From a virus (lineage: Duplodnaviria > Heunggongvirae > Uroviricota > Caudoviricetes): a stretch of DNA of 64,000 nucleotides. Position 1 is the first letter of the stretch; every line of letters begins with the position of its first letter. Shown in pieces: positions 3,082-40,311 of this stretch. The translations under genes were made by a program, and so were the position numbers. The notes beneath the pieces are model-generated. The model saw only the letters and a program-made list of their open reading frames with translations, did no database searches and had not been told where the DNA came from. The stretch is taken from the IMG/VR virus record IMGVR_UViG_3300043105_000137. One strand, 5' to 3'.

Positions 3082-4224
3082 ATGCAGATATTAGAAAAAA
3101 CAGAGTTAGACTTTTCAGATGTTTTGATTAAGCCTCGTCGTTCCACTATCGCCAGTCGTAAAGATGCAGATATAACACGAGAGTATAAATTCAAATGGTG
3201 TCCTTATACGATTAAAGGAACTGGTATAATGCAGGCTAATATGGGTACAATCGGTAACTTTGATGTGACGAGGAAGATGTTAAAAGTTGGTTTGTTTGCC
3301 TGTCTGCATAAACACCATGAAGTTAATGACCTTATTGACTTCTTCAAGAGTTTGTCTGACGATGAACGAAAACGAACATTTATTTCTATTGGACTAAAAG
3401 ACAATGGTGTTGATAAACTGAAACAACTGAATGAAGAAGTTTTCAGTGGTAAAGACTATAGTATGTCCATTTGTATTGATGTCCCTAATGGTTATATTCC
3501 ACAGGTAAAACAACTGGTCATTGATATTCGTAAGGTATATCCTAATTGTCTTTTGATGGTTGGTAATGTTGTTACTGGTGATATTGTTGAAGACCTTATC
3601 CTTTCGGGAGCTGACATAATCAAAGCTGGAATTGGTGGTGGTGGACAATGTATCACGAGAAAACAAACTGGTGTAGGTCGCCCTCAATTATCAACTATCA
3701 TAGAATGTGCGGATGCGGCTCACCAAGTGGGGGGTATGTGTTGTTCTGATGGTGGAATTACTTGTCCGGGTGATATTGGTAAGGCTTTTGGAGCAGGTGC
3801 GGATTTTATCATGATTGGTAGTTTGTATGCTGGAACAACGGAAGCTGATGGAGAAATAGTTGAAAAGACATACCTCACAAATGAACGAACAACAGAGGTG
3901 GTTAATTATGTCATGGGTGTAGTTAATCATGAAAAAGTATATGAAACCAAAAAGTTCAAGTTGTTCTATGGTATGAGTTCATCACTGGCTCAGGAAAAAT
4001 TTGGTGATGGAAAACGTAAGTATCGAGCCAGTGAAGGCCGTGTTAGTTTGGTACCATATGTAGGTTCAGTTGATGATGTAAATGAGGAATTTCTTGGTGG
4101 ATTGAGAAGTACAATGACATATATAGGAGCAACAAAACTTAAAGATATACCTAAGTGTTGTGTGTTCTATAAAGTGAATAATCAGTTGAACCGTACATAT
4201 GAAGGTTCAACAATAGGATATTAA
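3082..4224 (+). CDS. guaC: GMP reductase (IMPDH/GuaC family)
   Basis: The N-terminus LDFSDVLIKPRRST, the GIGGGGQCITR motif and the segment CSDGGITCPGDIGKAFGAGADFIMIG all match GuaC signature regions. Confidence 0.8.
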   Translation: MQILEKTELDFSDVLIKPRRSTIASRKDADITREYKFKWCPYTIKGTGIMQANMGTIGNFDVTRKMLKVGLFACLHKHHEVNDLIDFFKSLSDDERKRTFISIGLKDNGVDKLKQLNEEVFSGKDYSMSICIDVPNGYIPQVKQLVIDIRKVYPNCLLMVGNVVTGDIVEDLILSGADIIKAGIGGGGQCITRKQTGVGRPQLSTIIECADAAHQVGGMCCSDGGITCPGDIGKAFGAGADFIMIGSLYAGTTEADGEIVEKTYLTNERTTEVVNYVMGVVNHEKVYETKKFKLFYGMSSSLAQEKFGDGKRKYRASEGRVSLVPYVGSVDDVNEEFLGGLRSTMTYIGATKLKDIPKCCVFYKVNNQLNRTYEGSTIGY

Positions 4225-4226
4225 TT

Positions 4227-4448
4227 ATGATGACTTTTGAATTAAACGACGAAGAAGAAAAGGAAGCGTTGGCCTTTATGGAGGAACATAAGAAAGTGTG
4301 TCCTCATTCCTTCGCTAATGGAAACCTCCCCGCAACAGGTGAACATTACTATTATAAGTTCATTCCCGGAGGTCTTGGTTCATCAGTCTTAATCGGATGT
4401 GTTTACTGTAATGTTGAAAAGGACATTACTGATGTTAGTTGTTGGTGA
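4227..4448 (+). CDS. Hypothetical small Cys-containing protein
   Basis: The ORF has an ATGA overlap with the guaC stop. Confidence 0.4.
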   Translation: MMTFELNDEEEKEALAFMEEHKKVCPHSFANGNLPATGEHYYYKFIPGGLGSSVLIGCVYCNVEKDITDVSCW

Positions 4449-4573
4449 TGTATACCTTAGTAAATGTTTATGGTTTAGGTAGTTTTGGGAAGTTTTATGA
4501 TTTAGAGTCAGCGGAGAACTACCTGTTTTCACTTGATGATTGGATTGACTGGATGGTTGAGAAAATTTAACAT

Positions 4574-6577: not shown

Positions 6578-7351
6578 ATGATTTTCCGAACCCTAAAAGA
6601 AAAATGTGAGTATTACAGAAGTCTGACTGATTATCGACTTCTTCCAAATGGTTACATTATGGTTATGATTGATGGTAAGAATTTTTCCACATTAATCAAA
6701 AACAAATTTGAGAAACCATTTGATGAGCAGTTTATTGAGATGATGAATAAAACTGCGAAGTATCTATGTAAGAATATCCAAAATTGTGTAGGTGCTTTTG
6801 TTCAATCAGATGAAATTAGTCTTGTCATTCGAGACACTAATGAAACCTGTGTACCCTTTGATGGTAGAATGTGTAAACTTTTGTCCATCATTCCCTCTAT
6901 TGCAACATCATACTTCACAAAGTTGATGATTGAATATGAGTTGAAACTTGTCCCCAGATTTGACCACATCTTTGAAATGAAAGATTATGTGTTCGACTGT
7001 AAGGTATGGGTTGTTCCTAATGAGAATGATATGTTAGCTTGGTTCTTATACCGTCAGATAGATTGTATTAAGAACTCAAAGAATCAGTTTTGTCAGACAT
7101 ATCTCTCACACAACACCCTGAGAGGACACAATTCAGATGAACAAGTTAAGTTGTGTTTGGAACAGACTGGAAATGATTGGAATTTGGTTTCTGATGATAA
7201 AAAGTTTGGTCGTTTCATCTACAAATCACAAGTAGTTAAAGTAAACCCAGAAGGACAGGAATATACCAGAAGTGTATGGGATATTGTTTCTTATGAGATT
7301 GCTAACAAAGAAAACAGAGAAGACTTAAAAAATAAATGGTTAAATAAATGA
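6578..7351 (+). CDS. Thg1-like protein (tRNA-His guanylyltransferase / 3'-5' nucleotidyltransferase family)
   Basis: The segments MVMIDGKNFSTL and AFVQSDEISLVIRD align with the Thg1 regions VVRLDGRNFHRF and AYGQSDEYSFVF that contain the catalytic carboxylates. Confidence 0.6.
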   Translation: MIFRTLKEKCEYYRSLTDYRLLPNGYIMVMIDGKNFSTLIKNKFEKPFDEQFIEMMNKTAKYLCKNIQNCVGAFVQSDEISLVIRDTNETCVPFDGRMCKLLSIIPSIATSYFTKLMIEYELKLVPRFDHIFEMKDYVFDCKVWVVPNENDMLAWFLYRQIDCIKNSKNQFCQTYLSHNTLRGHNSDEQVKLCLEQTGNDWNLVSDDKKFGRFIYKSQVVKVNPEGQEYTRSVWDIVSYEIANKENREDLKNKWLNK

Positions 7352-11218: not shown

Positions 11219-12493
11219 ATGAAACTAACATTCAAAGACATAGAAGATAAAGGACTTCTCTTATATCGTTACATAAGGGGTTCACAGGTCTATGGTACCA
11301 ATGTCGAAACAAGTGACGTTGATGAAGGTGGTATCTATATCGCTCCCTCAAATCAACTTCTTGACCTTGGTTTTGATTACCAGAATGAAATCTGTGATGA
11401 GAAACATGATACCTGTTGGTGGGAGATAGGTAAGTTCATGAGACTACTCCTATCATCTAACCCCACTGTATTGGAAGCCCTGTTCGTTCCTGATGATAAG
11501 GTCTTGTATGAACACCCCATCATTACGAATATCAAAAAGTATCGTGACCAATTCATCACCAAACAATGTTTCATGCCTTTTGGTGGTTATGCTGTGTCTC
11601 AGATTAAAAAGGCTCAGGGACAAGATAAGAAAATTCACTGGGACATTGAGAAGATGGTTAGAAAGACTCCCCTCGATTTTTGTTATACTTTTAAGGGACA
11701 GGGTAGTCAAAACATTCAAACTTGGCTCAGTGAACGAGGTCTTGACCAAAGTAACTGTGGATTGGTAAATGTGCCCAATATGCCTAATATGTTTGATGTG
11801 TTCTATGACTTTGGTCAACACATTGAACTAAATGGTATCACAAAAGAATTTTTCACCGACGAAAAAAATCGTAATGACAAATTCTTGAACTATGTATATA
11901 CAACTTTAACATCTAAATTTGACCAGACCGAAATGAAATGGTCTTGGGTAATGAAAAATCTTTATGAAAAAATTAAAACTCCTTTTGGTAAACACTGCGG
12001 TATCATTTCTAATGTGGGTTCAAGTAATGAAATCCGTTTTTCAGAAACATTAAAAGGTTCTACACCTATTTGTTATATGTCTTACAATGAAAATGGTTAT
12101 AGACAACATTGTAAGAAATATCGTGAGTATGAGGATTGGAAGAAAAACCGTAACAAAGCTCGGTATGAAAACAACCTTGAAGGACTCGAAAAAGAAAACT
12201 CAGCGAAGTTCTATGATGCTAAGAATATGTGTCACTGTTTCCGTCTGATTTCTATGGCGATTGAAGTAGCTAAGGGTGAAGGACTTAAACTTGACCGTAG
12301 AGGAATTGATGCTGATTTTCTCCTTGATGTTAGAAATAGAAAATATACTTATGATGAGTTGATGTCTAAACTAACAGAACTTAAATCTCAAATGGATGAA
12401 GAAATATCTAAATCTGTTATTCCTGATGAGATTTCTGTTGATATGGTAAATGACCTCCTGTTATATGCACGAAATAAATTCAACCAGAAATGA
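11219..12493 (+). CDS. Pol-beta-superfamily nucleotidyltransferase
   Basis: The N-terminus carries GSQVYGTNVETSDVDEGG, a match to the GS-x9-13-DxD nucleotidyltransferase signature. Confidence 0.5.
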   Translation: MKLTFKDIEDKGLLLYRYIRGSQVYGTNVETSDVDEGGIYIAPSNQLLDLGFDYQNEICDEKHDTCWWEIGKFMRLLLSSNPTVLEALFVPDDKVLYEHPIITNIKKYRDQFITKQCFMPFGGYAVSQIKKAQGQDKKIHWDIEKMVRKTPLDFCYTFKGQGSQNIQTWLSERGLDQSNCGLVNVPNMPNMFDVFYDFGQHIELNGITKEFFTDEKNRNDKFLNYVYTTLTSKFDQTEMKWSWVMKNLYEKIKTPFGKHCGIISNVGSSNEIRFSETLKGSTPICYMSYNENGYRQHCKKYREYEDWKKNRNKARYENNLEGLEKENSAKFYDAKNMCHCFRLISMAIEVAKGEGLKLDRRGIDADFLLDVRNRKYTYDELMSKLTELKSQMDEEISKSVIPDEISVDMVNDLLLYARNKFNQK

Positions 12494-18239: not shown

Positions 18240-19061
18240 ATGTTTAAGAAGTTTCTATTTTTTGTCATGGCCATTGTTACCATGATGTCTATGTCCTCTT
18301 GTCATATGGTTACTCCTGATGCTGATGAGGAAGCGGTTCTTATTTACAAGCCTTGGTTTTTTGGTCATGGTGGTGTTGATGATACCCCTGTTCAAACTGG
18401 TCTGACTTGGTGTTGTGCATCTACAAGTTCAGAAACATTCAAAATCACACCCCAACGATATGATGTTGATTTTGATGATATTATGTCTAATGATAACACC
18501 CCTCTGGACTATGCGACATATATCACCCTCCAAATCACACCGGGTAAATCTCCTATTCTAATGAAGAACTATGGTGTTGATTGGTTCAAGAATAACATTG
18601 AAGTAGTATATCGTAATTTCGTTCGTGAGGAGATTTCAAAGTATAGTCCTTTTGACCTAATGTCTAACCGAGAAGTTTGTACACAGATTGATACCGCAGT
18701 AAAGAATAAACTGGTGACACATATTCAAAATCTGTCAAAGAAGAAAGAATTTCCTGTTGAAGTTCGAGAAGTCATCACAGGTCGAGCTAAACCTAATGAC
18801 AAACAACTGGCTGAGATGAATAACACCGCCGCCGCAATTCAAGCTCGTCAAACTCAACAACGACTGGCTGAAAAAGAGGAAGCCCGTAAGAAAGCTGAGA
18901 TCGCTCGTGCTGAGGCCGACAAGGCGTATATGAAAGAGATGAACCTATCCCCTGAACAGTTTATCATGTTGAAGATTGTAGATAAAGCCAATCCCAATGT
19001 TGATATTGTTTTGGGTGGTGGAACAAACTCAATGTGGAATATCCGTCGAGGTGATAAATAA
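18240..19061 (+). CDS. SPFH/band-7 domain lipoprotein
   Basis: A signal peptide with lipobox (SMSSC) is present. The C-terminus has the Ala/Glu/Lys/Arg-rich coiled coil QARQTQQRLAEKEEARKKAEIARAEADKA typical of the HflK/C prohibitin family. Confidence 0.45.
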   Translation: MFKKFLFFVMAIVTMMSMSSCHMVTPDADEEAVLIYKPWFFGHGGVDDTPVQTGLTWCCASTSSETFKITPQRYDVDFDDIMSNDNTPLDYATYITLQITPGKSPILMKNYGVDWFKNNIEVVYRNFVREEISKYSPFDLMSNREVCTQIDTAVKNKLVTHIQNLSKKKEFPVEVREVITGRAKPNDKQLAEMNNTAAAIQARQTQQRLAEKEEARKKAEIARAEADKAYMKEMNLSPEQFIMLKIVDKANPNVDIVLGGGTNSMWNIRRGDK

Positions 19062-33520: not shown

Positions 33521-35431
33521 ATGGCTTTTCTTCAAAACAAATTTATAGAAGATTATAAAACCGCCTGTCAAATACAAAAACTATATAAACAAATATATAG
33601 AATTTGTTATAAGATGGGCAACTATTATGTACCAAAAGGTAGTAGAATTGTTACTGTCACTTCAGATGATGGTACAACTCGACAAGTATATAGACCCGTA
33701 TATAACAATAGAATAATTGAGACTGATGGGTGGTATGATGGTAATGAAGATGTAAAAATTCACCCAAATGGTGTTAAATCAATATCTTTAACTCAAAATA
33801 CATATCTTACAATATCACAAATTGAAGATTTATATCTGTATAATAATATTATTCTTGCTAGTTATGATAGTACCACACAAAATGTTCCACAATATTTAAA
33901 AACAGGTGAGCTAAATGAGAAATTCAAATCTATATCTGTCGAAATACAATCATTATTATTCACATTGATTGATTCCGAAGCTCTAACGCCTTTTAGAACA
34001 TCATACACATATTATCCCGTAATGGATGCCAGATACCCCCATGTTCACTGGGCTTATGTTGCGATGAAAAATAATATGAATAAGTCACAAAGACGAATAT
34101 TCTATAACACTTGTATCGGTAAAACACTTCAAGAATATAAACGATTTACCACACACACATTTCCCAGAATATATAAACAACCTTGGGATAGTGGAACTTG
34201 GACACATACAGAGGATGAAACAAATTTGACCGATAGAGATAGAGTAAAAAAGAAAATGTATAAACAATGGTCAAGAACAGATTCAAGTGCTAACTATCTA
34301 ATTCTTAAAGCTGAGGAAGTATTAGAGAAATATGGTTGGCCTGAAGATGACCTTATTAAAACAAGTGAAGTCCCTGTTAGAATTGTTTTCTTTACAGGTG
34401 CGGGTATGAGTGAGGAAAATGGTATCTATACATATAAGAGTGAGGAAGAAGGTAATTTGTGGTATGAGAACCCTATTGATATGATAATGACAAAATCCGG
34501 GTGGAATTCTGACCCTGTTTTCTTGAATAGATTTTTTAATGAATTGAGAGCCAGTTACATTAATAAAAATACCATGCATCTTGGTTATCAAATTATAAAT
34601 AAATTCATTAATGATACTATTGGTGAAGGAACAAATAAACATAATACCTTTGATGTGAAAATCATTACTCAGAATATTGATGACCTACATGACAAAGCAT
34701 TATGTGACTATTTTTTTAGATATTATAACACGTCATATGAACCCCCGATATATGGAATTAGTGATAGTGGTTTTTATAAATATATGAAATTTACCAATAT
34801 TGGAAAATCTATGACAGCGAAAGAATTCATAGATGAACACCTTATACATCTTCATGGTAATTTAATGATTATGTGCAATGAAGATGATGTCGATAATACA
34901 AACTACCATGCTGACTTATCATATTGGACAAAAAGTGTTTCCGAAGATGATAACACAACAACAACAACATTGGCAGGAGTTTCAAAATATAAAAAAGTAA
35001 ATGGTAAGTATGTACAATCCGGAGTTGTAACAATAGACACAACAGAAAGTCATAAAGATTGTGGATTACCAACAGATGCTAAGGTTTGGACTTATTTCCC
35101 AAAAGTCAAACAGACATCAAATGGTAATGCAAAGATGAGACCTTGGATTACTCTATATCACGAAACCGTAAATAGAATGACAGAAGCTATCGAATTGGTT
35201 AGGTCTTGTGACATATTCGTAATGGTGGGAACTTCATTAGAAACTTTCCCCGCAGCCAATTTAATGACTTATGTTCCATCGACTACACCTATCATATATA
35301 TAGACCCAAATCCAAATACTGAAATGATAGAAAAACTAAAGATGACCAGTAGAACAGAAATAGTTAAAACATATGCACCAAATGGTCTTTCTCATGTGTT
35401 AGATGTATATCTTATGGGTTTGAAAATATAG
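33521..35431 (+). CDS. SIR2 (sirtuin-like) domain protein fused to an N-terminal domain of about 280 aa with no recognisable motifs
   Basis: Four sirtuin motifs appear in order: FFTGAGMSEENGI (GAGxS), TQNIDDLH (QNIDxLH), HLHGN (catalytic His) and VMVGTSLETFPAANL (GTSL..P). The canonical Zn-binding cysteine pairs are absent. Confidence 0.7.
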   Translation: MAFLQNKFIEDYKTACQIQKLYKQIYRICYKMGNYYVPKGSRIVTVTSDDGTTRQVYRPVYNNRIIETDGWYDGNEDVKIHPNGVKSISLTQNTYLTISQIEDLYLYNNIILASYDSTTQNVPQYLKTGELNEKFKSISVEIQSLLFTLIDSEALTPFRTSYTYYPVMDARYPHVHWAYVAMKNNMNKSQRRIFYNTCIGKTLQEYKRFTTHTFPRIYKQPWDSGTWTHTEDETNLTDRDRVKKKMYKQWSRTDSSANYLILKAEEVLEKYGWPEDDLIKTSEVPVRIVFFTGAGMSEENGIYTYKSEEEGNLWYENPIDMIMTKSGWNSDPVFLNRFFNELRASYINKNTMHLGYQIINKFINDTIGEGTNKHNTFDVKIITQNIDDLHDKALCDYFFRYYNTSYEPPIYGISDSGFYKYMKFTNIGKSMTAKEFIDEHLIHLHGNLMIMCNEDDVDNTNYHADLSYWTKSVSEDDNTTTTTLAGVSKYKKVNGKYVQSGVVTIDTTESHKDCGLPTDAKVWTYFPKVKQTSNGNAKMRPWITLYHETVNRMTEAIELVRSCDIFVMVGTSLETFPAANLMTYVPSTTPIIYIDPNPNTEMIEKLKMTSRTEIVKTYAPNGLSHVLDVYLMGLKI

Positions 35432-35461
35432 TAATTAACTAAATCTAAATATTTATCAATC

Positions 35462-35497
35462 AACCGAATAGAAGTAAAATCTATTCGGTTTTTTTAT
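35462..35497 (+). terminator. Rho-independent terminator
   Basis: An 11-bp stem aaccgaataga/tctattcggtt is followed by T7. Confidence 0.7.
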
Positions 35498-35608
35498 TTC
35501 ACCACCAGTAGACCGTTTGTTATATCATATAATATATACTCTATGAATACGGATGTTGATCAAATTTTTTTATATTTTAACAGTAAATTAGGGTGAATCA
35601 CTATTTAC

Positions 35609-35630
35609 TTTGTTATCTTTATCATGTAAT
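35609..35630 (+). promoter_or_regulatory. Class-2 conserved motif
   Basis: The sequence is TTTGTTATCTTTATCATGTAA. A related copy, TTTGTTATATCATATAATAT, lies at 35513-35538. Confidence 0.4.
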
Positions 35631-35645
35631 TAATTTAGAAACAAC

Positions 35646-36224
35646 ATGATATTAGGAAGTCATAAATCATTAAGTTATATCACACCTAAGAAATGGTGGA
35701 TGTGGTTTCTTACTCCAATGTATAAACACCAAAGTAAGGACTTAGGACAACAACTCAAAGAAGGTATTAGAGTTCTTGATATTAATGTCCGATTTGATGA
35801 TCATGGTAATGTATCTGTCTGTGATGGGATATATGAAACCAAAAGTTATAATCCCAGAGTATTCACACTACACACTATTAATAAGATAGACAACTTTGGT
35901 GATAAAGATACCGATTATTACATCATTCTCACCCTCGATACAAAAAAGGCGTCATTAATACAAGAAGTGGAATTCATTAAACTATGTAAGGAATTCACAA
36001 GTAGATATTTTAGAAATAATGTTCACTTGCTTGGTTGTAGACGTAAGTTTGATAATGAGAAGGTATATGTTGGTTCACCTGATTTCACTGATATGTCTAT
36101 TATCTCAGCAACAGACCAAAAAGATTCTCGATGGTATGAGAAACTTATCCCTTGGTTCTATGCGAAACGAAAAAACGAAACTATTGAACCCACCTCAAAT
36201 GTAACCCTTTTGGACTTCATTTGA
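35646..36224 (+). CDS. PI-PLC X-domain-like phosphodiesterase (tentative)
   Basis: The segments ILGSHKSLSY and IRVLDINVRFDDHGN resemble the His-containing catalytic segments of the PLC-like phosphodiesterase fold. Confidence 0.3.
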   Translation: MILGSHKSLSYITPKKWWMWFLTPMYKHQSKDLGQQLKEGIRVLDINVRFDDHGNVSVCDGIYETKSYNPRVFTLHTINKIDNFGDKDTDYYIILTLDTKKASLIQEVEFIKLCKEFTSRYFRNNVHLLGCRRKFDNEKVYVGSPDFTDMSIISATDQKDSRWYEKLIPWFYAKRKNETIEPTSNVTLLDFI

Positions 36225-36227
36225 TTT

Positions 36228-36292
36228 TTAACAAAGTTTTAGCACTTAAAATTTGGAGATGTTATAAAAAACCTGTAACTTTGTAGTGTAAA
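36228..36292 (+). promoter_or_regulatory. Class-1 promoter cassette, copy 1 of 3 in tandem
   Basis: The sequence is TTTTAACAAAGTTTTAGCACTTAAAATTTGG...TAacTTTGtagtgtaa. Confidence 0.6.
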
Positions 36293-36325
36293 ACAAAAAG
36301 AACATTGAAAAGATGATTGAAAAAA

Positions 36326-36394
36326 GATTTAACAAATTTTTAGCTCTTAAAATTTGGTCAAGTCAAAAAAATCAAGTATCTTTGTAGTGTAATT
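36326..36394 (+). promoter_or_regulatory. Class-1 promoter cassette, copy 2 of 3
   Basis: A near-identical cassette. Confidence 0.6.
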
Positions 36395-36423
36395 AAAAAC
36401 AACATTACACAAGATGATTGAAA

Positions 36424-36494
36424 AAAGATTTAACAAATTTTTAACACTTAAAATTTGGTCAGGTCGAAAAAATCAAGTATCTTTGTAATGTAAA
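36424..36494 (+). promoter_or_regulatory. Class-1 promoter cassette, copy 3 of 3, with the conserved leader
   Basis: The cassette plus the leader AAAACAAAAACAAAGTTTAACTCTCTAAA lie upstream of the ATG at 36531. Confidence 0.6.
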
Positions 36495-36530
36495 ACAAAA
36501 ACAAAGTTTAACTCTCTAAAACAAGAAACA

Positions 36531-36863
36531 ATGAAAGGTTCAGTAATCGTAAATGGTCAGGTAATGACACAAGAAAAATATAAACAAGCAGTCATTACTA
36601 CCCTCGAAGAAAACAATAACAAATGGATGACTTGTGACGAAATGGTCGAGTGGGCATCTCACCACAACTTATGTGAACGTAAGAACGCATATCGAAAGGC
36701 AATGTCTCACCCCCTCTGGAAAATCATCTCTAACATGATGGAGGAAAAAAATCCGGTCATCACTCGAATGTCAAACATCAACAATGTTTTCATCTACAAG
36801 TTGAAAGTATCCAATGTCTATATTGACAAAAATGGTCGTCGTTGGGTACGTCGTCAAAAATAG
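36531..36863 (+). CDS. Hypothetical protein, paralog of 37892-38233
   Basis: Shares VNGQ..T...Y..AV...L..N.N.WMT..E...WAS...L.E.KNA.R.A.SHPLWKIIS.MM with 37892. Confidence 0.5.
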   Translation: MKGSVIVNGQVMTQEKYKQAVITTLEENNNKWMTCDEMVEWASHHNLCERKNAYRKAMSHPLWKIISNMMEEKNPVITRMSNINNVFIYKLKVSNVYIDKNGRRWVRRQK

Positions 36864-37103
36864 AGTTTTTTGAATTTGTTATATATAAATTGTAAAGAAC
36901 CTCACCGCAATTCATATCAAGAATTTATAAATGAAGTGTAATTATCTTAGGTTCTTGTTAATACAAAAATTAAAAGGTTATGGTACACATTAGATCACCT
37001 TTTGGAAGAGACATTCCTTCAATCTGACCGAGCTCTAAGATTGAAGAACCCCAAAGAGACGTCTTTGGTCTGGGACTTTTTCGCGAATAGTCCCTTCATG
37101 GAG

Positions 37104-37188
37104 AACTCAGTAAGTCTCAGTTGGTCGAGCTATGTTGAATTTCTTTATTGAAACCCATGCGACGAGGGTTCGAGTCCCTCCTGAGTTC
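37104..37188 (+). tRNA. tRNA-like element, possibly a degenerate or insert-containing tRNA
   Basis: The acceptor stem aactcag/ctgagtt pairs perfectly over 7 bp and the T-arm gaggg-ttcgagt-ccctc is canonical. The D-region and anticodon region are irregular (33 nt between the D-arm and T-arm), so it may be a pseudo-tRNA. Confidence 0.3.
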
Positions 37189-37272
37189 CTAAGAATTTTG
37201 TTGAAATGCTTTTTTATTACATTTTTTTCATATTACTATATTTTTAATATTATATAAGTTTTTGATTTAATT

Positions 37273-37292
37273 ATCATGTCGTGAGACATGAC
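37273..37292 (+). repeat. GTGA-tetraloop hairpin repeat, copy a
   Basis: The structure is tcatgtc-GTGA-gacatga. Confidence 0.5.
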
Positions 37293-37351
37293 CATAACAA
37301 ATGAGTTTTAATTGATATTTTTAAAGTTGTTTAAAATTTACACATTAAATA

Positions 37352-37379
37352 ATCATCATGTCGTGAGATAGACTGATTA
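37352..37379 (+). repeat. GTGA-tetraloop hairpin repeat, copy b (degenerate 3' arm)
   Basis: The sequence taatcatcatgtc-GTGA-gatagactgatta abuts the 5' end of the tRNA at 37380. Confidence 0.45.
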
Positions 37380-37452
37380 AACTCCGTAGCTCAGTTGGTA
37401 GAGCGTCTGGTTAAACACTGGAAGGTCGTGGGTTCGAGTCCCATCGGAGTTA
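37380..37452 (+). tRNA. tRNA with a non-canonical anticodon loop UUAAACA (nominal anticodon AAA with C37)
   Basis: The acceptor stem aactccg/cggagtt, the D-arm gctcagttggtagagc and the T-arm gtggg-ttcgagt-cccat are all canonical. The anticodon stem tctgg/ctgga contains two G-U pairs. Confidence 0.55.
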
Positions 37453-37471
37453 CTTTTTCATTTGATGCTTT

Positions 37472-37487
37472 TATGTCGTGAGACATA
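37472..37487 (+). repeat. GTGA-tetraloop hairpin repeat, copy c
   Basis: The structure is tatgtc-GTGA-gacata. Confidence 0.5.
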
Positions 37488-37583
37488 ACCATAGTAAGTG
37501 TTTTTTTTTAGTACATTATTTTTTTTTCATTGTATATAAGTTTTTGATTTATAAATAAATTATTTATTAAGTGAGAGAGAGAA

Positions 37584-37612
37584 AATCATCATGTCGTGAG
37601 ACATGATTGATT
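37584..37612 (+). repeat. GTGA-tetraloop hairpin repeat, copy d
   Basis: The sequence aatcatcatgtc-GTGA-gacatgattgatt ends 1-2 nt before tRNA-Lys. Confidence 0.5.
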
Positions 37613-37613
37613 A

Positions 37614-37686
37614 GGCTTCGTAGCTCAGTTGGTAGAGCAACTGACTCTTAATCAGTGGGTCGTGGGTTCGAGCCCCACCGGAGTCA
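37614..37686 (+). tRNA. tRNA-Lys (anticodon CTT)
   Basis: The acceptor stem ggcttcg/cggagtc contains G-U pairs. The anticodon stem-loop is actga-cucuuaa-tcagt and the T-arm gtggg-ttcgagc-cccac. Confidence 0.75.
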
Positions 37687-37747
37687 CAGAGTTTTTTACT
37701 AATTTTTTTAAATTATTCTTATAGAATTTAAATTTTTACACACAAAT

Positions 37748-37776
37748 AATCATCATGTCGTGAGATAGCATTGATT
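37748..37776 (+). repeat. GTGA-tetraloop hairpin repeat, copy e
   Basis: The sequence aatcatcatgtc-GTGA-gatagcattgatt abuts the tRNA at 37777. Confidence 0.45.
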
Positions 37777-37851
37777 GACTTCGTACGTCTCAGCTGGTAG
37801 AGCGTCTGGTTAAACACTGGAAGGTCGTGGGTTCGATCCCCACCGAAGTCA
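37777..37851 (+). tRNA. Second tRNA with the UUAAACA anticodon loop, with an irregular D-arm
   Basis: The acceptor stem gacttcg/cgaagtc pairs perfectly. The anticodon arm is identical to the one at 37380. The D-region carries 3 extra nt (tacgtctcagctggtagagc) and the T-arm is gtggg-ttcgatc-cccac. Confidence 0.45.
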
Positions 37852-37891
37852 CAAATTAAATTTATTGTAAAATTTCTAAAACATTAAAATC

Positions 37892-38233
37892 ATGGCACGC
37901 AAAGGAAACGTGAAAGTAAATGGTCGTACTTTGACCACAACAGATTACTCAGACGCAGTTGTAGAAGCACTCCGTCACAATGGTAATAACTGGATGACCG
38001 TCAATCAAATCATTGCATGGGCATCTGACAACAAACTGGTTGAGAAGAAGAATGCTCCCCGTCAAGCAGTTTCTCACCCCCTCTGGAAAATCATCTCAAT
38101 GATGATGTATGACACCCAGTACAAAGGTGTTGACCACAATCTTGAACGTCGTGTTGTTCATGGTAAGTATGCCTACCGTTTGAAGAACGCAGACTATGCT
38201 TACATTAATGGTAATGAAATCATCGACCTTTAA
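37892..38233 (+). CDS. Hypothetical protein, paralog of 36531-36863
   Basis: Carries the shared SHPLWKIIS motif. Confidence 0.5.
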   Translation: MARKGNVKVNGRTLTTTDYSDAVVEALRHNGNNWMTVNQIIAWASDNKLVEKKNAPRQAVSHPLWKIISMMMYDTQYKGVDHNLERRVVHGKYAYRLKNADYAYINGNEIIDL

Positions 38234-38813: not shown

Positions 38814-39448
38814 AAGATATAAATTTTAAGTTAGTCTTTTCAGGAAAGTTATCTTCTTGGACTGACGTTTTTAATATAATCGAACAAGCTGAAGATAACC
38901 ATGATGTTCGTTTCCTAATTAAAGTGGATGGAACAACATATAGTTATTTTTGGTGGAATGAATATACTAAATCTTGGAATATGTTTTTTTCGTATTTCAA
39001 GAATTATGAACTGAAATCAACAACAAAATGGCCTTATTATTGGTGGCCTGATGCCGTAGATGTTTATATGGTAACTGACCCGACGATTTTTATTCGTGAA
39101 CTTCAAAACGATTTACGACATGAGTCTTTCCAAAAATTAACTTATCCTGACTCTAAACTGAGTGTAATGGTGGATATGATTAAACCTATACTTGGCTCAG
39201 TGGTTGAAGTTAAAAATGAGAAAGTATTGTTGTTGGGATTGTCTTATACATTTGATGACTATTATTACTACTACCTGACACAAGATAATAAAATCGGTTT
39301 CACATCTTCGGTAGGAAAAATAGTTCAACATTATGACCAAACACGAGCTGAGTTATTGAAGGAGGACATTGAAACAAAACAACTTGTCCAGAACCTTAGA
39401 TGGGAACATTTCAAAGACGCTCCGGAAATAGAAATAATACACGTTTAA
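38810..39448 (+). CDS. Hypothetical protein
   Basis: A 212-aa Trp/Tyr-rich ORF. Confidence 0.45.
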   Translation: MKDINFKLVFSGKLSSWTDVFNIIEQAEDNHDVRFLIKVDGTTYSYFWWNEYTKSWNMFFSYFKNYELKSTTKWPYYWWPDAVDVYMVTDPTIFIRELQNDLRHESFQKLTYPDSKLSVMVDMIKPILGSVVEVKNEKVLLLGLSYTFDDYYYYYLTQDNKIGFTSSVGKIVQHYDQTRAELLKEDIETKQLVQNLRWEHFKDAPEIEIIHV

Positions 39449-39450
39449 TT

Positions 39451-40311
39451 ATGATAACATTTGTTTTAATTATCTTAGCAATTTTAATACTTCCTTATAT
39501 CCTTCATTTTTTGGGATTGGAAATATCAGAGTATTACAGAAAGAAATATAATGATCGTGAACTGGTCAAGGAATTCAAAAACTATCGAGGTTATATTGGA
39601 TTTTATAACAACCCCAGTCTTATGATTTATTATACACATCATGGAGTTTATACCGACTGTAAATGGGCTCACAAAATTCTAATCTATTTTGGTGGTTGTG
39701 TCTTGTGTTGGCAATGGGGTAATGACTTCAATGAGAATACAGGTCTTGACTATGCTTCTATTTCATACTCTTGGGGTTGGGATTCTATCAATGGTGAAAA
39801 ATGGTGGACTGATTTTAGATGGCGTAACCGTACTTTTTCTAACCCTTTCAAAGCAACCCACTATGATAACTCTTGGATAATCGACTTTAATAATAAGACG
39901 TTAGTTGAGAAAAGACAATTAGATGACATTAATGATTATCCTCTTGTTGATGTTAGATTGAATACCACCTACCGTATGAAGAATGACACAGTTCAAGATG
40001 TTTCCCGTATCCGTTGGTGGATTGAACAATGGGAATGGTCAGTGCCCTTCCTCAATAAAATAGGTCTTGGTAATTATTGTAAGAAAATAAATGTTGACCT
40101 CGAATTCCAATCTGACACTGAACTTGGCGTCAATCGGGATTCTTGGAAGGGTGGTGTAATGGGTGCCACTGTTAGAATTAGTGATGAACCCGAACTTCTC
40201 AAACTTTATCTCGACATCGTTAAACATCAGAAATTGGAGAAGATACCTCTACTCAGAACGGCTATCAAAAACCGTATCGACTATTTTATGAATGAAGAAA
40301 AAAAATATTGA
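39451..40311 (+). CDS. Membrane-anchored hypothetical protein
   Basis: The start was chosen at MITFVLIILAILILPYILHFLG, a transmembrane helix. The track start at 39400 overlaps the upstream gene. Confidence 0.4.
   Translation: MITFVLIILAILILPYILHFLGLEISEYYRKKYNDRELVKEFKNYRGYIGFYNNPSLMIYYTHHGVYTDCKWAHKILIYFGGCVLCWQWGNDFNENTGLDYASISYSWGWDSINGEKWWTDFRWRNRTFSNPFKATHYDNSWIIDFNNKTLVEKRQLDDINDYPLVDVRLNTTYRMKNDTVQDVSRIRWWIEQWEWSVPFLNKIGLGNYCKKINVDLEFQSDTELGVNRDSWKGGVMGATVRISDEPELLKLYLDIVKHQKLEKIPLLRTAIKNRIDYFMNEEKKY

What the first reader, a model, noticed from the sequence alone, without database searches (positions are those of the whole stretch)
37380..37851. Two tRNA genes share an aberrant anticodon loop UUAAACA but have different acceptor stems
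Both genes have canonical acceptor, D and T arms and an identical anticodon arm, gucugg-UUAAACA-cuggaa. With standard numbering this gives A34-A35-A36 and a pyrimidine at position 37, which is highly unusual for a decoding tRNA. The loop contains UUA and UAA triplets, so a one-register shift would give ochre-suppressor or Leu-like anticodons. Because the two acceptor stems differ, the two copies would carry different identity elements. These may be non-canonical decoders, suppressors used late in infection, or tRNA-like decoys for anticodon nucleases.
Basis: seen in the sequence. Interest (0 to 1): 0.7.

Follow-up and report, generated by a model that had tools for sequence, protein, structure and literature searches.

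The report
Phage tRNA pair with odd AAA anticodon loop
A large phage that already has a normal phenylalanine tRNA also keeps two extra, well-preserved tRNA genes whose anticodon loop (UUAAACA: anticodon AAA followed by a C) breaks two near-universal tRNA rules; the same loop occurs in a few unrelated phages, and its function is unproven.

Summary
Window 37380-37452 and 37777-37851 are tRNA genes (Rfam 58.8 and 39.8 bits). ARAGORN calls the first tRNA-Phe(AAA). Both share a 41-nt central block that includes the arm UCUGG-UUAAACA-CUGGA (A34, C37).

One correction: the second gene has a 2-nt insertion and a non-standard D arm.

The pair looks selected rather than decayed. Their acceptor stems differ by two fully compensatory pairs. 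In close strains the genes are conserved while the spacers carry indels.

Full tRNAs with this loop also occur in three other phage-like contexts (L003, L024, L050).

The same phage has a 20-tRNA main array with a canonical tRNA-Phe(GAA). The pair is therefore extra. It sits with tRNA-Lys(CUU) in a separate accessory cluster that has its own upstream hairpin motif.

There is no sign of stop-codon recoding, so suppressor readings are rejected.

Best guess, at low confidence: an exact-match UUU reader. Its partner Lys(CUU) would serve AAG in the same way. C37 may limit misreading by A34.

A non-decoding tRNA-like decoy or bait in a conflict over tRNA is nearly as likely.

I rate it a new variant of a known kind, of moderate interest.

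The parts
37380..37453 (+). tRNA gene 1: anticodon AAA, loop UUAAACA (A34, C37), canonical cloverleaf, A1-U72 first pair, A73, no encoded CCA
   Evidence: ARAGORN tRNA-Phe(aaa). Rfam RF00005 58.8 bits with alignment. The minimum-energy fold is the cloverleaf. Conserved in strains L010-L019, with only G57A in the L011 group.
37777..37851 (+). tRNA gene 2: same anticodon arm and variable loop as gene 1, different acceptor stem (G1-C72, U5-A68), 2-nt insertion after position 9, extended or bulged D stem, A73
   Evidence: Rfam RF00005 39.8 bits; not called by ARAGORN. Fold. The acceptor differences from gene 1 are compensatory. The strain variant A68G keeps U5.G68 paired.
37614..37687 (+). canonical tRNA-Lys(CUU) lying between the two AAA genes
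   Evidence: ARAGORN. Rfam 70.2 bits. The main tRNA array of the same phage has Lys(UUU) but no Lys(CUU).
37104..37188 (+). tRNA-like element 0: acceptor stem like gene 1 but 8 bp long, extended D stem with a bulged U like gene 2, canonical T arm, but a 27-nt AU-rich region in place of an anticodon arm. It is preceded by conserved hairpins from about 36990.
   Evidence: Read from the sequence. Repeat families D4 and D5. Only a weak tRNA-Sec-model match, 19.2 bits, E 0.3. 100% conserved across strains while the spacers vary.
37347..37378 (+). conserved upstream element of gene 1: stem AATCA/TGATT enclosing TCATGTCGTGAGA (inner hairpin with a GUGA loop), ending 1-2 nt before the tRNA
   Evidence: Motif ATGTCGTGAGA occurs 5 times, all within 37276-37765; shuffles give 1.27 on average and 0 of 100 shuffles reach 5. 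Repeat families D3 and D7. Folds. Absent from the 20-kb main tRNA array.
37584..37612 (+). the same upstream hairpin element in front of tRNA-Lys(CUU); the strongest copy, a 12-bp stem with one bulge and a GUGA loop
37744..37775 (+). the same upstream hairpin element in front of gene 2; its 42 nt are 81% identical to the element in front of gene 1
   Evidence: (D7)
37269..37291 (+). a further copy of the hairpin motif, not next to a tRNA, followed by ACCATAAC
   Evidence: D3, D8
37466..37488 (+). a further copy of the hairpin motif, downstream of gene 1, followed by ACCATAGT and a T run
   Evidence: D3, D8
36531..36863 (+). 110-aa ORF, paralogue of 37892-38233, flanking the cluster upstream; winged-helix type
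   Evidence: 46% identity to the downstream paralogue. AlphaFold model and Foldseek matches of the paralogue.
37892..38233 (+). 113-aa ORF flanking the cluster downstream; predicted winged-helix fold
   Evidence: AlphaFold2 mean pLDDT 70.7. Best Foldseek PDB matches are forkhead, Fur and H1 winged helices, E about 0.07, prob 0.97-0.98. No Pfam or PHROG family.

Best explanation
The two genes are maintained, expressed-looking tRNAs of a rare phage-borne type with anticodon AAA and C37. They are additional to the phage's ordinary tRNA-Phe(GAA). I think they most likely work in translation as exact-match readers of UUU, the commoner Phe codon of this AT-rich phage. Their neighbour tRNA-Lys(CUU) is likewise the exact-match reader of AAG, which the main array serves only by wobble. 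A34 gives three Watson-Crick pairs with UUU. I infer that C37 removes the usual purine-37 stacking and i6A modification. That would leave the weak A-U triplet stable only on a perfect UUU, and so limit the misreading of UUC and of Leu UUA/UUG that unmodified A34 is known to cause. The altered loop would also make the tRNA independent of, or insensitive to, enzymes that recognise the canonical Phe loop. Shown: the gene structure, the loop, compensatory conservation, recurrence in other phages, the presence of a canonical Phe tRNA, and a separate cluster with its own upstream element. Inferred: transcription, charging (with Phe or anything else), decoding of UUU, and the role of C37.
For: tRNA 1 has the full tRNA architecture and the conserved tertiary nucleotides U8, A14, G18G19, U33 and the GUUCRA T loop. 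Selection for an intact acceptor helix: gene 1 against gene 2 shows A1-U72/G1-C72 and C5-G68/U5-A68, both double compensatory, plus G49.U65/G49-C65. In strains, A68G keeps a U.G pair and G57A keeps a purine. In strain alignments the tRNAs and about 50 nt upstream are invariant while the spacers carry indels of 18-40 nt. The window pair carries A35, A36, A73 and U20, which are PheRS identity elements in E. coli (own knowledge: Peterson & Uhlenbeck 1992). UUU is used at 29.3 per 1000 codons against UUC at 19.9. The main array of the same phage (L100) has Lys(UUU) and Phe(GAA) but no Lys(CUU), so the accessory cluster adds the two exact-match partners. Other phages use A34 tRNAs inside ordinary decoder arrays: tRNA-Phe(AAA) with the canonical loop UUAAAAA in a 16-tRNA array (L072) and in L090; Ile(AAU) in L007; Ser(AGA) and Leu(AAG) in L087. 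Complete tRNAs with the UUAAACA loop and 7-bp acceptor stems occur in three other phage-like contexts, with different anticodon-stem sequences: L003, L024 and L050.
Against: Purine 37 is nearly universal and matters for A36-U1 stability, so C37 should make a poor decoder (own knowledge). The phage already has tRNA-Phe(GAA), which reads UUU. The bodies of genes 1 and 2 are least like that Phe tRNA (43 and 42 identical positions). They are most like the Asn, Lys, Leu and Thr tRNAs (51-54 for gene 1; Thr is 47 for gene 2). Gene 2 has a non-standard D arm. Across the other lineages the discriminator is C, C and G rather than A, and first pairs differ, so a common Phe identity is unlikely. The cluster also holds a tRNA-like element with no anticodon loop. 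It lies in an accessory region next to Acb3-like and SIR2 genes. No expression, charging or decoding data exist. I found no paper describing such a tRNA.
Confidence: 0.38

Rival explanations
1. These are non-decoding tRNA-like RNAs: a decoy, bait, inhibitor or cofactor in a conflict over tRNA. The tRNA body provides stability and recognition. The loop UUAAACA is presented to a host or phage protein, such as an anticodon nuclease, a modification enzyme or a repair complex, rather than to a codon.
For: The loop breaks two decoding rules, at A34 and C37. The phage already has a complete decoder set including Phe(GAA). The pair sits in a separate accessory cluster with a private upstream motif, next to tRNA-like element 0, which has no anticodon loop, and near Acb3-like and SIR2 genes. 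The window encodes RNA-repair-type enzymes: a Thg1-like protein, an RlaP nucleotidyltransferase and a Band-7 protein. Discriminator bases and first pairs differ among lineages. In Lysobacteraceae, a tRNA-like RNA upstream of slipin(Band-7)-RtcB has a hypervariable anticodon arm, and one species carries exactly UUAAACA. Such 'band 7-associated tRNAs' were predicted as repair cofactors (Burroughs & Aravind 2016, as cited in bioRxiv 10.1101/312249).
Against: No natural tRNA has this loop, so it is unclear what it would mimic. No partner protein is shared among the loci: winged-helix ORFs in the window and L003, a CsrA-like ORF in L050, and others in L024. The Lysobacter RNA has only a 4-bp acceptor and its loop is just one of five different variants, so that match may be coincidence. 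The window's Band-7 gene is 19 kb away and not close to slipin. No RtcB is in the window. Full 7-bp acceptor stems kept by compensatory change are what an aminoacylated tRNA needs.
Confidence: 0.3
2. These are miscoding or frame-shifting tRNAs. On this reading they are charged with an amino acid other than Phe, because identity elements differ between copies and lineages. Alternatively, lacking purine 37, they are slippery on U-rich sequences and so alter the proteome or drive programmed frameshifts.
For: The acceptor stems and discriminators differ (A, A, C, C, G). L003 and L024 have G at -1 opposite C73, the bacterial HisRS determinant. The body is not Phe-like. Loss of the purine-37 modification is known to raise frameshifting (own knowledge).
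Against: No G3-U70, long variable arm or other anticodon-independent identity set is seen in the window pair. No slippery-site candidates were examined. Miscoding of a codon used at 29 per 1000 would damage the phage's own proteins.
Confidence: 0.1
3. These are decaying duplicates (pseudogenes) of a neighbouring tRNA. They share the odd loop only because one was copied from the other or was homogenised with it by gene conversion.
For: The cluster evolves by duplication and shuffling: shared D-arm variant, shared acceptor type, repeat families D2-D9. Gene 2 scores only 39.8 bits with an insertion. Two Logan assemblies hold a gene-1/gene-2 hybrid with acceptor mismatches. A 56%-identity relative lacks the genes. 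With about 10^8 tRNA genes searched, a few doubly mutated loops could arise by chance (my rough estimate).
Against: There are two fully compensatory acceptor pairs between the copies. There is no difference in the 20 nt private to the pair (position 26 to position 45), while the flanks differ at about 28%. The genes are invariant across strains whose spacers vary. Complete tRNAs with the same loop occur in three other phage contexts. The hybrids may be k=31 assembly chimeras across the 41-nt identical block.
Confidence: 0.12
4. These are ochre-suppressor or Leu-reading tRNAs that use a shifted anticodon register (UUA at 32-34 or UAA at 33-35).
For: The triplets are present in the loop.
Against: Both tools place a standard 7-nt loop with U33 and anticodon 34-36 = AAA. 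No alternative stem register pairs (read from the sequence; fold). About 85% of the window is coding under code 11. TAA is the main terminator (62 of 102). Only 5 of 101 neighbouring gene pairs are in frame across one stop.
Confidence: 0.02

Closest known systems
Canonical bacterial/phage tRNA-Phe(GAA), e.g. the phage's own copy at L100 6616-6689
   Same: Cloverleaf, 7-nt loop, U33, A35, A36 and A38. In the window pair also A73 and U20. It would pair with the UUU codon.
   Different: A34 instead of G34 and C37 instead of A37, so no i6A site. U32 against C32 in the phage's own Phe tRNA. The body is only about 43 of 73 positions identical to the phage's Phe tRNA. Two copies lie in a separate cluster.
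Phage tRNA-Phe(AAA) with canonical loop UUAAAAA (L072 in a 16-tRNA array of a 185-kb IMG/VR phage; L090)
   Same: Anticodon AAA with A34, phage-borne, G31-C39 closing pair, ordinary cloverleaf.
   Different: Those keep A37. In L072 it is the only Phe tRNA seen in the array, so it is plainly a decoder. The window pair has C37 and coexists with Phe(GAA).
Phage tRNAs proposed or shown to escape tRNA-targeting defences through changes in the anticodon arm (van den Berg et al. 2023, PMC10264068; T5 tRNA-Lys against PARIS, PMC11464382; T5 tRNA-Tyr against a retron effector, PMC11555353)
   Same: A phage-encoded extra tRNA whose anticodon arm departs from the canonical one, carried alongside RNA-repair and anti-defence genes.
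   Different: Those tRNAs keep a standard anticodon and purine 37. No nuclease aimed at tRNA-Phe is known to me. An AAA anticodon could not replace decoding of UUC. Nothing was tested here.
[quoted passage not shown]
   Same: A tRNA-shaped RNA with an anticodon-like loop that need not decode. The Lysobacter niastensis copy upstream of slipin-RtcB carries the very loop UUAAACA. The window phage has Band-7, RlaP and Thg1-like genes.
   Different: In the window the RNAs are not next to a Band-7 gene, and no RtcB is present. They have full 7-bp acceptor stems, against 4 bp. The Lysobacteraceae loop is hypervariable, with five different loops in five species. The 2016 paper itself could not be read here.
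Natural suppressor tRNAs of recoded phages
   Same: A phage-borne tRNA with a non-standard anticodon.
   Different: The anticodon is not complementary to a stop codon, and there is no recoding signal in the window.

Membership tests
tRNA (Rfam RF00005) | Cloverleaf matching the covariance model at or above the gathering score (29 bits) | tested here: met
   58.8 and 39.8 bits. The second gene needs a 2-nt insertion and has one non-standard D-stem pair.
tRNA (Rfam RF00005) | 7-nt anticodon loop with U33 | tested here: met
   Loop UUAAACA in both alignments and in ARAGORN's call for gene 1.
Decoding elongator tRNA | Purine at position 37 | tested here: not met
   C37 in both genes.
Decoding elongator tRNA | Transcribed, processed, aminoacylated and used on the ribosome | not testable with these tools
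   No expression or charging data. CCA is not encoded, as for most other tRNAs of this phage.
Bacterial tRNA-Phe | Anticodon G34-A35-A36 | tested here: not met
   A34-A35-A36.
Bacterial tRNA-Phe | A73 discriminator and U20 (E. coli PheRS identity set, own knowledge) | tested here: met
   Both window genes have A73 and a D loop AGYUGGUA with U20. The other lineages have C73, C73 and G73.
Bacterial tRNA-Phe | Body resembling the cognate Phe tRNA of the same genome | tested here: not met
   43 and 42 identical positions to the phage's Phe(GAA), near the lowest of 16 phage tRNAs compared. Asn, Lys, Leu and Thr are the closest.
Stop-codon suppressor tRNA | Anticodon at 34-36 complementary to UAA, UAG or UGA | tested here: not met
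   The anticodon is AAA.
Stop-codon suppressor tRNA | Genome shows in-frame stops or recoding | tested here: not met
   About 85% coding under code 11. 5 of 101 in-frame neighbour pairs.
b7a-tRNA / RtcB-operon tRNA-like RNA | Encoded next to a Band-7 (SPFH) gene and an RNA ligase | tested here: not met
   The Band_7 ORF is at 18240-19061, 19 kb away. No RtcB appears among the Pfam hits of 102 window ORFs. The window's Band-7 is not close to Lysobacter slipin.
b7a-tRNA / RtcB-operon tRNA-like RNA | Sequence features of the published b7a-tRNA | not tested
   The defining paper is not held. Only Lysobacteraceae examples found here could be compared. They have a 4-bp acceptor and variable loops.
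Nuclease-evading phage tRNA | Anticodon arm differs from the host's cognate tRNA at positions a host nuclease reads, while decoding is kept | not testable with these tools
   The host is unknown. The nearest helicase match is to crAss-like phages at 34% identity. No nuclease is identified.

The most novel reading that the evidence does not exclude
The UUAAACA-loop tRNAs are not decoders. They would be a phage counter-defence or regulatory RNA class: tRNA-shaped baits or inhibitors whose loop is aimed at a tRNA-directed nuclease or repair/sensor complex, related in principle to the hypervariable-loop tRNA-like RNAs of bacterial slipin-RtcB operons. Alternatively they are deliberately miscoding tRNAs, for example His-charged through G-1:C73 in L003 and L024.
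Probability: 0.3. Interest if true: 0.8.

Novelty: new variant of a known kind. Interest (0 to 1): 0.5.

Why it matters
Anticodon AAA is essentially unused in bacteria, and purine 37 is close to universal. A selected, recurrent tRNA that breaks both rules is therefore a natural experiment on decoding rules. If it decodes, it shows how a phage can add an exact-match UUU reader while containing the promiscuity of A34. If it does not decode, it adds a new tRNA-shaped player to the fast-growing field of tRNA-targeted phage defence and counter-defence. In either case it is directly testable by tRNA sequencing, charging assays and deletion.

Tried and rejected
(1) Alternative stem registers, 8- or 9-nt loops, and the reverse strand. 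None pairs. The T and D loops are canonical only on the + strand.

(2) Close relatives in INPHARED: none.

(3) The exact anticodon arm in IMG/VR gave only chance matches in coding DNA.

(4) Several pattern hits were false. One was a normal Asn loop, CUGUUAA, that overlaps the pattern. Others were variable arms of Ser/Leu tRNAs.

(5) The first metagenome and genome scans, with a D-arm anchor, found nothing.

(6) Relatives of the flanking ORF, of SIR2 and of Band-7 in IMG/VR gave none, none, and one locus (L091) that does not cover the cluster.

(7) A 56%-identity relative of the flanking ORF (L020) has tRNA-Lys(UUU) but no AAA tRNA.

(8) A complementary target for the loop elsewhere in the window: none beyond chance.

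(9) A tRNA or cytidine deaminase that might edit A34 or C37. A dCMP_cyt_deam_1 ORF lies near the L003 tRNA, but no deaminase motif occurs in the window's ORFs.

(10) A kissing interaction with the tRNA-Lys(UUU) loop. It gives only 5 A-U pairs, does not explain C37, and the other lineages have no Lys tRNA nearby. I dropped it.

(11) A b7a-tRNA link through Lysobacter. It is weakened by the hypervariable loop.

(12) Literature searches for the loop, for an AAA anticodon in phages and for Phe-AAA gave nothing relevant.

(13) Invariance of the loop among the other lineages is not independent evidence, because the search pattern fixed GGTTAAACAC.
Full report
1. What is there.

The window is AT-rich (33-38% GC), with all genes on the + strand and tightly packed. 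ARAGORN finds six tRNAs, among them tRNA-Phe(aaa) at 37380-37453 and tRNA-Lys(ctt) at 37614-37687. Rfam RF00005 finds those two and a seventh tRNA at 37777-37851. The scores are 58.8, 70.2 and 39.8 bits against a gathering score of 29.

In the Rfam alignments both odd genes have a standard 5-bp anticodon stem, UCUGG/CUGGA. The pairs are U-A, C-G, U.G, G.U and G-C. The 7-nt loop is UUAAACA, which gives U33, anticodon A34-A35-A36, C37 and A38. ViennaRNA returns the cloverleaf as the minimum-energy fold of both. No other register pairs.

Two corrections apply. The second gene has two extra nucleotides after position 9 (UA-CG-UCUC) and is not called by ARAGORN. Its best fold has an extended D stem, CG-(U)-CUC/GAG-CG, with a bulged U. 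A normal tRNA-Lys(CUU) also lies between the two genes.

2. The cluster.

The region 36864-37891 lies between two paralogous 110- and 113-aa ORFs that are 46% identical. These ORFs are predicted winged helices. The region holds four tRNA-type elements.

- Element 0 at 37104-37188 has an 8-bp acceptor like that of gene 1, the bulged D stem of gene 2 and a good T arm. In place of an anticodon arm it has a 27-nt AU-rich region.
- Gene 1 has anticodon AAA.
- tRNA-Lys(CUU) is canonical.
- Gene 2 has anticodon AAA.

Each of the last three is preceded by a conserved element: AATCA-TCATGTCGTGAGA...-TGATT, with an inner GUGA-capped hairpin. The core ATGTCGTGAGA occurs five times in the window, all within 37276-37765. 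Shuffles give 1.27 on average, and none of 100 reaches five. The core is absent from 20 kb of the phage's main tRNA array.

3. Are the two genes maintained or decaying?

Their centres are identical over 41 nt. The acceptor stems differ at A1-U72 against G1-C72 and at C5-G68 against U5-A68. Both differences are fully compensatory. G49.U65 against G49-C65 also differs.

The 20 nt private to the pair (positions 26-45) show no difference, while the flanks differ at about 28%. This is what selection or gene conversion would give.

Exact-protein look-ups found close strains of the same phage in many metagenomes (L010-L019). In these strains all four elements and about 50 nt upstream of each are invariant or change conservatively. 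The changes are G57A in gene 1 and A68G in gene 2, which keeps U5.G68 paired. The spacers carry substitutions and indels of 18-40 nt.

Two Logan assemblies hold a hybrid of the gene-1 5' half and the gene-2 3' half, with acceptor mismatches. This is either a real deletion or a k=31 chimera across the 41-nt repeat.

I conclude that the pair is under selection for a tRNA-like structure.

4. Does the loop occur elsewhere?

Pattern scans that fixed the loop, the closing pair and a T arm found complete tRNAs with UUAAACA in three other contexts.

- L003 is an IMG/VR phage contig of higher GC.
- L024 lies in a phage-type replication module of a 694-kb contig.
- L050 lies next to a YqaJ-type exonuclease and a CsrA-like ORF.

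Their anticodon-stem pairs 27-43, 28-42 and 29-41 differ from the window's and from one another, and mostly stay paired. Their acceptor stems are unrelated. Their discriminators are C, C and G.

The pattern fixed the loop, so its invariance among these hits is not evidence. Only their existence as complete tRNAs is.

As a control, the same scan of IMG/VR for the canonical-37 version (UUAAAAA) found two real tRNA-Phe(AAA). One is the only Phe tRNA seen in a 16-tRNA array of a 185-kb phage. Other phage arrays held here contain Ile(AAU), Ser(AGA) and Leu(AAG).

A34 is therefore a rare but real habit of phage tRNAs. C37 is about as common as A37 among AAA tRNAs in IMG/VR (1 against 2). Pyrimidine 37 is otherwise nearly absent. 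The numbers are small. With roughly 10^8 tRNA genes searched, I cannot exclude that some single-copy cases are mutational noise.

5. The phage's own decoder set.

The window begins inside a tRNA array. A strain contig that extends 10 kb upstream (L100) shows 20 tRNAs plus a permuted tmRNA. The array includes a canonical tRNA-Phe(GAA) with loop CUGAAAA, and Lys(UUU), but no Lys(CUU).

The AAA pair is therefore extra. Its body is among the least similar to that Phe tRNA (43 and 42 identical positions) and most similar to the Asn, Lys, Leu and Thr tRNAs.

UUU is the commoner Phe codon, at 29.3 against 19.9 per 1000. The accessory cluster thus supplies the Watson-Crick readers of the two codons, AAG and UUU, that the main array reads only by wobble.

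6. Recoding.

Under code 11, stop-to-stop segments of at least 100 codons cover about 85% of the window. TAA ends 62 of 102 ORFs. Only 5 of 101 neighbouring pairs are in frame across a single stop. Suppressor readings also require abandoning U33. I reject them.

7. The RNA-repair lead.

A scan of one genome per species gave a single tRNA-like hit with this loop, in Lysobacter niastensis. It lies directly upstream of a slipin (Band-7) gene and RtcB.

A bioRxiv paper on YrlA cites Burroughs & Aravind 2016 for a predicted 'band 7-associated tRNA' next to Band-7 and RtcB. That RNA has not been validated experimentally. The 2016 paper itself is not held.

Four further Lysobacteraceae loci carry the same tandem pair of tRNA-like RNAs. 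The first RNA has a GNRA tetraloop in place of an anticodon loop and an encoded ACCA. The second has only a 4-bp acceptor and a hypervariable anticodon arm. Its loops are UUAAACA, UCUCGAAAA, GUGUUAU, UUAUUAA and UUCCUAA.

So tRNA-shaped, probably non-decoding RNAs can display this loop. There, however, it is one variant among many.

The window does encode a Thg1-like protein (6578-7351, E 3e-29), an RlaP nucleotidyltransferase (11219-12493) and a Band-7 protein (18240-19061). The Band-7 gene is 19 kb from the cluster and not close to slipin. No RtcB is present in the window. The link is suggestive only.

8. Interpretation.

Function of some kind is likely, given the compensatory change, strain conservation and recurrence. 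Between decoding and non-decoding roles the evidence is nearly balanced.

For decoding:
- the complete tRNA architecture;
- PheRS-type elements A35, A36, A73 and U20 in the window pair;
- the pairing with Lys(CUU) as exact-match readers;
- the precedent of AAA tRNAs in decoder arrays.

Against decoding:
- C37;
- a body that is not Phe-like;
- the odd D arm of gene 2;
- heterogeneous discriminators elsewhere;
- a canonical Phe tRNA already present;
- the company of an anticodon-less tRNA-like element in an accessory region with Acb3-like and SIR2 genes.

I commit, at 0.38, to a specialised UUU reader in which C37 weakens stacking. On that view only a perfect UUU triplet is read, which contains the known promiscuity of unmodified A34. 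That last step is inference from general knowledge of decoding. A decoy or bait role stands at 0.30.

9. Novelty.

I found no description of such a tRNA in the searchable literature. It is a tRNA, so not a new kind of element. It is an unusual and apparently undescribed variant whose function can be tested directly.

Noticed in passing
window 36990-37190: This stretch is invariant across strains from about 37034 onward (one strain group differs at a hairpin loop near 37012-37015 and at one base near 37031), while neighbouring spacers vary. It holds several hairpins (e.g. CCAAAGA-GACG-TCTTTGG and GGGACT...AGTCCC), then tRNA-like element 0, which has an 8-bp acceptor, a bulged D stem and no anticodon loop. 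It may be one larger structured RNA. One hairpin keeps its stem GGAA/TTCC while its loop changes between strains.
   Followed up: partly
window 37269-37770; L093 469-485: The hairpin motif with core TCATGTCGTGAGA (GUGA loop) is private to the accessory tRNA cluster. The same 17-mer sits 24 nt upstream of a tRNA in an unrelated AT-rich IMG/VR phage (L093), inside a different outer stem (GCTTATCA/TGATAAGC). It could be a promoter, operator or processing signal.
   Followed up: partly
window 36227-36529: Three tandem 101-nt repeats (70-78% identity) lie upstream of ORF 36531. Each contains TA(A/T)CTTTG, which fits the Bacteroidota -7 promoter motif TAnnTTTG (consensus recalled from memory). The best helicase match in INPHARED is to crAss-like phages at 34% identity.
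   Followed up: partly
window 6578-7351, 11219-12493, 18240-19061: The window encodes a Thg1-like 3'-5' polymerase (Pfam E 3e-29), an RlaP RNA-repair nucleotidyltransferase (E 3e-19) and an SPFH/Band-7 protein (E 4e-15). Together they make up a tRNA/RNA repair kit in this phage.
   Followed up: partly
window 33521-36224 and 39400-40311: A 636-aa SIR2-domain protein, a PI-PLC-X-like ORF and an Acb3-like (CBASS inhibitor) ORF surround the tRNA cluster. The region looks like an accessory or counter-defence island.
   Followed up: no
window, all + strand ORFs: Codons TGC (1.1 per 1000 against TGT 18.0) and AGC (1.0 against AGT 15.1) are almost absent. The bias is far stronger than for TTC/TTT or AAC/AAT. 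The cause is unknown.
   Followed up: no
window about 975-1062: By eye there is a Ser-type tRNA-like sequence with loop CUGCUAA (anticodon GCU) and an off-consensus T loop (GGTTCGTGTCC). Neither ARAGORN nor Rfam calls it at the gathering score.
   Followed up: no
L056 2986-3126, L065 1962-2105, L068 about 2000-2140, L098 about 590-740, L099 about 580-740: Lysobacteraceae slipin(Band-7)-RtcB loci carry a tandem pair of tRNA-like RNAs. The first has a GNRA tetraloop (GCGA, GUGA or GCAA) in place of the anticodon loop and an encoded ACCA. The second has a 4-bp acceptor and an anticodon arm that differs in every species, while the rest is nearly invariant. The pattern looks like diversifying selection on a bait loop.
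   Followed up: partly
L100 3857-4047 (same phage, upstream of the window): A permuted tmRNA (Rfam RF04321, 60.7 bits; ARAGORN tag peptide GNNFSRPEKVMYAAA*) lies inside the phage's main 20-tRNA array.
   Followed up: no
L014 946-1019, L015 470-543: Two Logan assemblies hold a hybrid of the gene-1 5' half and the gene-2 3' half, with the 400 nt in between (including tRNA-Lys) missing. This is either a natural deletion by recombination across the 41-nt identical block or a k-mer assembly chimera.
   Followed up: partly
L003 2760-2836; L024 3510-3584: In both C73-bearing UUAAACA tRNAs the base at -1 is G. A G-1:C73 pair, the bacterial histidine identity mark, could therefore form. L003 also has a dCMP/cytidine-deaminase-family ORF at 4207-4566.
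   Followed up: no
L093 294-448: Two 75-76-nt tRNAs carry Leu anticodons UAA and UAG but lack the long variable arm of leucine tRNAs.
   Followed up: no
L038 4-392: A metagenome contig holds an array of near-identical tRNA-like genes with encoded CCA and 8-9-nt, mutually different anticodon loops. One loop is UUAAACACU.
   Followed up: no
L050 257-655: The ORF next to the UUAAACA tRNA has a C-terminal CsrA-like sequence (LTRSIGDTVTI...NAPESVKIVRTEL), recognised by eye only.
   Followed up: no
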